A DNA stretch of 64,000 nt from the human T2T-CHM13v2.0 reference genome, Homo sapiens. The stretch is from NCBI RefSeq assembly GCF_009914755.1, contig NC_060926.1. The stretch is one strand, 5' to 3'. Every line of letters begins with the position of its first letter. The stretch's first letter is position 1. Position numbers and translations under genes: made by a program. The notes under the pieces are model-generated. The model saw only the letters and a list, made by a program, of their open reading frames with translations. It did no database searches and was not told the origin of the DNA. Below, piece by piece: positions 60,359 to 61,113 of the stretch.

Positions 60359-60657
60359 TTTTTTTTTTTTTTCCAGACGGAGTCTCGCTCTGTCGCCCAG
60401 GCTGGAGTGCAGTGGCGCGACACTCACTCACTGCAAGCTCCGCCTCCCGGGTTCCCGCCATTCTCCTGCCTCAGCCTCCCGAGTAGCTGGGACTACAGGC
60501 GCCCGCCACCACGCCAGGCTAATTTTTTTGTATTTTTAGTAGAGACGGGGTTTCACCGCGTTAGTCAGGATGGTCTCGATCTCCTGCATAAGCAGTGATC
60601 CGCCCGCCTCGGCCTCCCAAAGTGCTGGGATGACAGGCGTGAGCCACCGCGCCCGGC
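60359..60657 (-). mobile_element. AluY in ND5 pseudogene, CpG-intact
   Basis: TSD ctttcaactctt; about 23 CpGs by manual count. Confidence 0.96.
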
Positions 60658-61113
60658 CCTTTCAACTCTTTATCAGATGAGAAGGCGTAGGAATCATGTC
60701 TTTCTAACTGGCTGATGATATGGCCGAGCAGATGCTAACAAAAGCAGGCCTCCAAGCAGTTCTGTACAACCGCATCGGCGATACTGGCTTTATTTTTAGC
60801 TATAGCATGATTTCTCTTATCCTCCAACACATGAGACTTTCAACAAGCGTTTACTCTAAACCCTATCCCCGACACCCTTCCATTACTTACTTAGCAGCAG
60901 CAGGAAAGTCAGCTAAATTCAACCTCCATCCCTGACTCCCATCCGCCATAGAAGGCCCAACCCCAGTCTCGGCCCTGCTCCACTCCAGCACTGTAGTTGT
61001 AGCAGTTTTCCTACTCATCCGTTTCTACTCTTTAATAGAAAATAACCTATTCATCCAAACCTTTACATTATGTCTAGGGGCTATTACCACCCTACTTACA
61101 GCAATCTGCCCTT

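What the first reader, a model, noticed from the sequence alone, without database searches (positions are those of the whole stretch)
60359..61030. CpG preservation in the AluY and NUMT next to the cassette suggests a germline-unmethylated domain
Seen: the AluY at 60359-60657 keeps about 23 CpGs (near the consensus complement) although it has several non-CpG changes and two block substitutions. The AluY-like element at 57126-57425 in the same NUMT keeps only about 10. ND5 sequence at 60.77-61.02 kb also shows CpGs (aaccgcatcggcga, ccccgac, atccgcc, ctcggcc). Established: methylated CpGs mutate much faster than other sites. Inference: the region has been protected from germline methylation, consistent with the cassette nucleating a CpG island that extends into the Alu and NUMT.
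Basis: partly seen in the sequence, partly recalled or inferred. Interest (0 to 1): 0.7.

Follow-up and report, generated by a model that had tools for sequence, protein, structure and literature searches.

The report
Copied CpG patch shelters neighbouring Alu
A 195-base piece of a CpG island 227 kb away sits as a copy inside an old mitochondrial pseudogene, and both this copy and an Alu repeat 460 bases from it have kept nearly all their CpGs, which likely means the copy keeps this spot unmethylated in the germline.

Summary
The Alu observation holds and is stronger than stated. The AluY-type element (60359-60658) has 0 CpG transitions at 23 reference sites, with 4 non-CpG substitutions in 195 sites, a normal AluY age. 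Only 1 of 51 unselected AluY-type copies does this (mean 9.3 transitions), and that one borders a CpG island. Five other AluY-type copies in the window have 12-18. No close sister copy was found. The 'cassette' (61116-61310) is an 89%-identical copy of part of a CpG island 227 kb downstream, patched into ND5, and has itself lost only 1 of 15 CpGs (5-7 expected). The NUMT claim is weak: inherited mitochondrial CpGs are kept at 13 of 27 sites near the cassette and 13 of 27 far from it. Only the stretch between Alu and cassette is modestly high. Best reading (0.55): a transplanted island fragment seeds a small germline-hypomethylated domain that covers the Alu. No methylation data were seen. Main rival: a young Alu whose changes came in one burst of error-prone repair; one block was copied from ND4 1.3 kb away. 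CpG-preserved Alus beside islands are known; the island's origin as a repair patch is the new part.

The parts
60359..60658 (-). AluY-type element with intact CpGs (0 transitions), T-run (poly-A tail) at about 60359-60373
   Evidence: 6 of 6 Y-diagnostic columns; 22 of 23 non-block reference CpGs intact, 4 non-CpG substitutions in 195 sites
60348..60360 (+). Left copy of the 13-nt target-site duplication; right copy at 60659-60671
   Evidence: identical flanks; single copy at the empty site in paralogous NUMTs
60581..60593 (+). Alu block substitution 2, matching ND4 59239-59251 over 13 nt (6-nt microhomology plus 7 new bases)
   Evidence: permutation P=0.0008 within 3 kb
60421..60426 (+). Alu block substitution 1 (local slippage or chance; best outside match 9 nt at 59626)
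   Evidence: P=0.16
60659..61115 (+). ND5 pseudogene stretch between Alu and cassette, 10 CpGs, modestly high retention
   Evidence: 8/12 ancestral sites kept vs 4.1 expected; more CpGs than all 19 old paralogues
61116..61310 (+). Cassette: 195-bp copy of part of a CpG island at G000:C2:120878540-120878739 (227 kb downstream, same strand), 72% GC, 19 CpG, with CCAAT (61251), GC-box/KLF-like (61272, 61288), GGAA and E-box motifs
   Evidence: only two copies found in the genome; motif names recalled
59239..59251 (+). ND4 pseudogene stretch that likely served as template for Alu block 2
   Evidence: carries a G at 59244 seen in only 1 of 14 aligned paralogues and a CpG decayed to CA, both present in the Alu block
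57126..57425 (-). Control AluY-type element in the same NUMT, 3.7 kb from the cassette, normally decayed
   Evidence: 8 reference CpGs kept, 14 transitions, 5 non-CpG changes in 203 sites
55600..62040 (+). Old NUMT (ATP8/ATP6 to ND5) hosting both Alus and the cassette
   Evidence: RefSeq pseudogene rows in the finding; 81-90% identical to old paralogues, 77% to L027 and L030

Best explanation
A 195-bp fragment of a CpG island 227 kb away sits inside an old ND5 pseudogene, likely inserted as a break-repair patch, and likely keeps itself and the AluY 460 bp to its left unmethylated in the germline, so their CpGs have escaped deamination. Shown: the copy and its single donor; replacement of about 30 bp of ND5 with no target-site duplication or poly-A; near-absence of CpG transitions in both cassette and Alu despite normal non-CpG divergence. 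Inferred: that transcription factors binding the copied CCAAT, GC-box and GGAA motifs exclude de novo methylation; that the CpG-rich Alu and the cassette behave as a close pair of unmethylated islands, which would explain why protection is seen leftwards only; that the cassette came before or about with the Alu (about 3.3% per lineage vs about 2% non-CpG divergence, order not resolved). The domain is small (about 0.95 kb) and does not measurably spread along the NUMT.
For: Alu: 0 transitions vs mean 9.3 in 51 AluY-type controls, 1 of 51 at 0; 12-18 in the five other AluY-type copies of the window, and at least 7 in all 61 other unselected Alus. The single 0-transition control lies within about 0.4-1 kb of a dense island (up to 35 CpG per 200 bp). 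Cassette: 14 CpGs shared with the donor, 1 transition in the cassette, 3 in the donor, 10 of 152 non-CpG differences; P=0.007 at rate ratio 8.9, 0.035 at ratio 6. Donor lies in an island-like stretch (500-bp windows GC 0.56-0.68, o/e 0.52-0.73). 60376-61310 has GC 0.56, o/e 0.74 over 935 bp. No sister copy carries the variant set. Literature: CpGs between unmethylated island pairs 500-1000 bp apart stay below 15% methylated in sperm, and sperm shores are shallower than somatic ones (PMC4509998 sections 6-7); Alus unmethylated in all tissues are CpG-rich, less similar to consensus, with one CpG-rich flank (PMC5204336 passages).
Against: No methylation or binding data were seen. No distance gradient in the NUMT: 13/27 near vs 13/27 far; 5/15 right of the cassette, as expected without protection; stricter site sets give 5/8 left, 4/8 right, 7/12 far. 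Two genome-wide picked copies (L084, L086) have only 1 CpG transition with 5-7 non-CpG changes and no island within about 1 kb, so a neighbouring island is not required for this pattern. The age of the Alu rests on 4-5 point changes, and at least one block arose by templated repair, so the changes may not be clock-like. Controls come from chr1:0-2.9 Mb only (first 100 of 80,718 pattern matches listed, 60 fetched).
Confidence: 0.55

Rival explanations
1. The Alu is young (or was recently overwritten by gene conversion from a young AluY), and its private changes arose together in one episode of error-prone, template-switching repair, so there has been no time for CpG decay. The cassette may still be a small unmethylated island on its own.
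For: Block 2 matches ND4 59239-59251 over 13 nt (P=0.0008), showing non-clock-like mutagenesis in this element. Two of the point variants recur in other copies (85A>C in 6 and 188T>C in 6 of the 19 copies aligned, which were picked for similarity). Target-site duplications are identical and the tail is pure. With only 2 post-insertion changes P(0 transitions) rises to 0.04-0.11 under flat or 1/t priors. Recent Alu insertions are reported as CpG-rich and less methylated in sperm (PMC13308097 passage).
Against: Point changes are spread over 180 bp, well outside the two blocks. No scored copy shares more than 2 body variants; L049 shares 4 alignment columns, but two lie at its non-homologous tail junction and it lacks both blocks. 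The decayed control Alu at 57 kb has an equally pure, longer T-run. The element lacks the shared variant sets of the two near-identical young clusters among the top hits. It does not explain the cassette's own CpG retention next door.
Confidence: 0.2
2. The Alu is germline-hypomethylated for its own or regional reasons (Alu-bound factors in sperm, or local chromatin just past the TMEM185B 3' end), and the cassette is a bystander or co-beneficiary rather than the cause.
For: CpG-intact, diverged AluY-type copies exist with no island nearby (L084, L086). The whole focal NUMT keeps more ancestral CpGs than paralogues (26/54 vs 15.7 expected, P=0.0014). Order of insertion is unresolved. Protection is one-sided.
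Against: The control Alu in the same NUMT is fully decayed. Such copies are rare (1 of 51) and the unselected one is island-adjacent. The best non-Alu 200-bp CpG count near 29 top hits is 2-11 vs 19 here. The TMEM185B island is more than 5.5 kb away.
Confidence: 0.18
3. Chance tail of the AluY distribution, or GC-biased gene conversion restoring CpGs, with normal methylation.
For: Tens of thousands of AluY-type copies exist (80,718 pattern matches), so rare extremes are expected; several Alu point changes go towards G/C.
Against: Two adjacent elements each show the deficit independently. No weak-to-strong excess in the NUMT near the cassette: 10 vs 7 left, 2 vs 13 right.
Confidence: 0.07

Closest known systems
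CpG-island-associated Alus unmethylated in the germline (Brohede and Rand 2006, seen only as a title in the reference list of PMC5204336; 'UNM All' Alus of Jorda et al. 2017, PMC5204336, passages)
   Same: High CpG content, lowered similarity to consensus, one CpG-rich and one CpG-poor flank (14 vs 3 CpG in 500 bp), close to an island-like sequence.
   Different: The neighbouring island is not an ancestral promoter but a 195-bp ectopic copy inside a NUMT; methylation here is unmeasured.
Sloping shores of newly inserted CpG islands (Grandi et al. 2015, PMC4509998; abstract and sections 6-7 read)
   Same: An inserted CpG-rich sequence lowering flanking methylation in sperm, strongest between close island pairs.
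   Different: Those islands came by retrotransposition or transposition; here a short repair-type patch. A graded two-sided shore was tested here and not seen.
Class 2 templated sequence insertions (PMC5110952, passages)
   Same: Distant donor left intact, no target-site duplication or poly-A, small deletion and microhomology at the site.
   Different: Old and about 11% diverged from its donor rather than a described polymorphism; carries regulatory island sequence.
RB1 CpG85 island born from the PPP1R26P1 retrocopy (PMC3839921, search listing only)
   Same: Primate-age ectopic CpG-rich insert reported unmethylated in sperm.
   Different: That is a kilobase retrocopy with imprinting; no start or end coordinate beginning 12097 and no TMEM185 row was found in the germline DMR table of PMC5106035 (hg19 position estimated from recalled offsets).

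Membership tests
AluY (name recalled; no published consensus was available) | Diagnostic non-CpG positions separating it from older Alus | tested here: met
   6 of 6 columns at which the fetched reference differs from the majority of 62 Alus
AluY (name recalled; no published consensus was available) | Full-length dimer with poly-A tail and target-site duplication | tested here: met
   283-bp body, T-run, 13-nt duplication, empty site in paralogues
Young or polymorphic Alu subfamily | Sister copies sharing its variant set | tested here: not met
   best other copy 94% over full length; at most 2 shared body variants; only 40 candidates scored per search, so not exhaustive
Young or polymorphic Alu subfamily | Absent in apes or segregating in humans | not testable with these tools
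   no primate genomes or population data held
CpG island (GC>=0.50, o/e>=0.60, >=200 bp, as quoted in PMC12582260) | Sequence criteria | tested here: met
   60376-61310: 935 bp, GC 0.56, o/e 0.74; cassette alone 195 bp, GC 0.72, o/e 0.77, just under the length cut
Germline-unmethylated Alu beside an island | CpG transitions depleted relative to non-CpG divergence | tested here: met
   0 vs mean 9.3; 1 of 51 controls
Germline-unmethylated Alu beside an island | Measured low methylation in sperm or germ cells | not testable with these tools
   no methylome held; locus not found in the readable supplements of PMC5204336 (four large files unreadable)
Sloping shore | Graded, two-sided protection of flanking CpGs | tested here: not met
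   13/27 near vs 13/27 far; 8/12 left, 5/15 right; low power because the NUMT predates the cassette
Class 2 templated sequence insertion | Intact distant donor, no duplication or poly-A, microdeletion, microhomology | tested here: met
   one donor; anchors 38-41 nt apart in 7 of 8 paralogues tried vs 207 here; a 5-nt word shared by donor end and ND5 restart, two changes from the present junction
Class 2 templated sequence insertion | Polymorphic in humans | not testable with these tools
   11% divergence from the donor argues for an old fixed event

The most novel reading that the evidence does not exclude
A 195-bp repair patch copied from a distant CpG island founded a new orphan island inside dead mitochondrial DNA, has stayed unmethylated in the primate germline since it was copied (long enough for about 3% non-CpG divergence per lineage), recruited a later AluY into the domain, and made the spot prone to templated repair from nearby ND4 sequence: a natural, datable transplant test of a minimal methylation-determining region.
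Probability: 0.3. Interest if true: 0.65.

Novelty: new variant of a known kind. Interest (0 to 1): 0.45.

Why it matters
If true, it is a natural experiment on how little sequence is needed to found a germline-unmethylated island, with built-in controls: a donor island, about 20 paralogous NUMTs without the patch, and a decayed AluY in the same NUMT. It would add break-repair patches to retrotransposition as a route to orphan CpG islands, and it may mark an unannotated promoter or enhancer 0.9 kb past the TMEM185B 3' end. The general effect (Alus beside islands keep CpGs) is already known, so the gain is a clean single-locus case rather than a new principle.

Tried and rejected
Source-element explanation: three similarity searches (40 scored each of 4612, 1785 and 2500 candidates); 29 plus 20 hits fetched, 19 of the 20 aligned: no sister. 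NUMT gradient: null on the pre-set test; a first looser site rule gave 6/9 and 6/8 near vs 8/14, 4/9 and 2/5 farther, and upstream zones had only 3-6 paralogues, so they were dropped from the final test. GC-biased conversion: no signal. Templated origin of block 1 (P=0.16) and of the left junction bases (P=0.76) rejected; right junction 11-nt match P=0.019, unresolved. A protein-level Arg-codon test was not done (one search failed on stop codons; paralogues were used instead). The bacterial promoter scan is not applicable and found nothing. Literature on the locus: 'MTND5P28' gave 2 papers, listing only, neither on this subject by title; NUMT+TMEM185B 0; TMEM185B+methylation+sperm 3, 2 listed, non-human; templated insertion, island and NUMT searches showed no paper on this locus by title. 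Molaro 2011 could not be read. Flanks of two 2-transition controls (L096, L117) and of L083 and L087 were not examined. Earlier scan findings were not available.

Full report
Observation. The counts are right: 23 CpGs in the Alu at 60359-60658, 10 in the Alu at 57126-57425, 10 in ND5 60659-61109 and 19 in the GC-rich cassette. The 1-kb bins 60001-61000 and 61001-62000 have the highest CpG o/e of the 64 bins in the window, 0.70 and 0.60 against 0.22 overall.

The Alu. No published consensus was available, so a reference was built from 12 of the 29 best genomic hits, leaving out two near-identical young clusters; it has 25 CpGs. The label AluY is recalled; what was tested is that the element matches the reference at 6 of 6 columns that separate it from the majority of 62 Alus. 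Outside two block substitutions it keeps 22 of 23 reference CpGs, loses one by transversion, none by transition, gains one, and has 4 non-CpG substitutions in 195 sites, plus two changed bases at the tail junction and a longer middle run. For background I took 60 of the first 100 listed matches (80,718 in all) to a CpG-free 22-mer: 54 were full length, 51 Y-type. They average 9.3 transitions and 2.9% non-CpG divergence, a rate ratio of 8.9; 1 of 51 has none. The five other Y-type copies in the window have 12, 14, 14, 15 and 18, and none of the 61 other unselected Alus has fewer than 7. The control in the same NUMT has 14 transitions at similar non-CpG divergence, 5 of 203. Modelled probability of no transition is 0.0006-0.012 for 4 post-insertion changes and 0.002-0.11 for 2. 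The controls come from one subtelomeric region, a limit.

Is it simply young? Three searches scored 40 candidates each; the best other full-length copy is 94% identical, and of 29 plus 19 aligned hits none shares more than two body variants or either block (L049 shares four alignment columns, two at a non-homologous tail junction). This is not exhaustive. Ape orthologues and polymorphism could not be checked.

The cassette. A search of the assembly finds exactly one other copy, 89% identical, 227 kb downstream on the same strand, inside a CpG-island-like stretch of about 1.5 kb. Paralogous NUMTs run through the site uninterrupted, with 38-41 nt between anchors that are 207 nt apart here, so the direction is donor to NUMT, with loss of about 30 bp of ND5, no duplication and no poly-A. 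A 5-nt word is shared by the donor end and the ND5 restart. These are the features listed for class 2 templated insertions (PMC5110952, passages). Cassette and donor differ at 10 of 152 non-CpG sites, share 14 CpGs, and the cassette has lost one by transition, the donor three. Under methylated rates 5-7 of 15 would be lost; P=0.007-0.035. This is evidence of protection independent of the Alu. The copy keeps a CCAAT box, a GC box, GGAA sites and an E-box present in the donor (motif names recalled, binding untested).

The NUMT. One search gave 55 matches; 29 paralogous loci were aligned, 22 old ones used. At 54 sites where paralogues show CG, TG and CA, the focal NUMT keeps 26 against 15.7 expected, but equally near and far from the cassette, 13/27 and 13/27. 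A post hoc split shows 8/12 between Alu and cassette (P=0.019), 5/15 to the right (P=0.38), 4/13 at 59.6-60.36 kb and 8/14 at 58.85-59.6 kb (P=0.024). The 10 CpGs between Alu and cassette exceed all 19 well-covered old paralogues, although at least two are gains. Power is low, since the NUMT (about 5% from the paralogue majority) decayed before the cassette arrived.

Controls for mechanism. The one unselected 0-transition copy (L120) borders a dense island, up to 35 CpG per 200 bp, as the known island-flank effect predicts. Against necessity, two copies picked genome-wide for similarity (L084, L086) have one transition with 5-7 non-CpG changes and no island within about 1 kb. No GC-biased substitution excess was seen.

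An unexpected detail. Alu block 2 matches ND4 59239-59251 over 13 nt, including a base nearly private to this NUMT and a decayed CpG (P=0.0008), so it was likely copied from this locus by template switching. The cassette's right junction matches 11 nt, found at ND4 59304 and also at about 56139 (P=0.019). This supports repeated repair here, and it also feeds the main rival, that the Alu's changes are not a clock.

Mechanism and prior work. The likeliest history is NUMT, then patch, then (or about then) AluY; factor binding in the patch would exclude de novo methylation, and the CpG-rich Alu 457 bp away would form a close island pair. In sperm, CpGs between unmethylated islands 500-1000 bp apart stay under 15% methylated (PMC4509998, abstract and sections 6-7). 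Alus unmethylated in all tissues are CpG-rich, less consensus-like and have one CpG-rich flank (PMC5204336, passages), and that paper cites Brohede and Rand 2006 for the evolutionary argument (title only). CpG enrichment tracks the age of sperm hypomethylated regions (PMC5793779, passages). Recent insertions are reported as hypomethylated in sperm (PMC13308097, passages). Ten literature searches and two supplement sets (some files unreadable or not searched) showed nothing on this locus; subscription journals and methylome tracks were not searchable.

Verdict. Real for the Alu and cassette, weak for the NUMT, cause inferred. Known effect, unusual origin of the island. Interest 0.45.

Noticed in passing
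window 60581-60593 and 59239-59251: Alu block substitution apparently templated from ND4 pseudogene sequence 1342 bp upstream, same strand (13-nt match, P=0.0008).
   Followed up: yes
window 61306-61316: Right junction of the cassette matches 11 nt at ND4 59304-59314, within 80 bp of the block-2 template, and an overlapping 11 nt near 56139; P=0.019, could be chance.
   Followed up: partly
window 57002-57093: Near-perfect 46-bp tandem duplication in the COX3 pseudogene, 30 bp from the other Alu; one copy keeps a CpG the other has lost.
   Followed up: no
window 58850-62040: The whole NUMT keeps more ancestral CpGs than its paralogues (26/54 vs 15.7 expected) at similar non-CpG divergence; unexplained (younger donor mtDNA or lower regional methylation).
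   Followed up: partly
L002:450-1800 (G000:C2:120877500-120878850): Donor CpG island of about 1.5 kb between the annotated neighbours; the copied part has lost more CpGs in the donor (3) than in the copy (1).
   Followed up: partly
L156 and L157 (G000:C10:122772735-122773115; G000:C3:5243369-5243749): AluY-type copies with 5-7 non-CpG changes but one CpG transition and no nearby island; possibly minor young subfamilies or isolated unmethylated Alus.
   Followed up: partly
G000:C2:238012800-238013700: A 61-bp tandem array built from ND5 NUMT sequence, about 14 units.
   Followed up: no
PMC5106035 supplementary file 11, chr2:121002049-121009176 (hg19): A 7-kb region upstream of RALB, roughly 28 kb from this locus by recalled offsets, is listed as 9% methylated in oocytes and 92% in sperm.
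   Followed up: no
window 54900-55300: Small GC-rich patch (GC 0.61-0.64, 7-8 CpG per 200 bp) just left of the NUMT.
   Followed up: no
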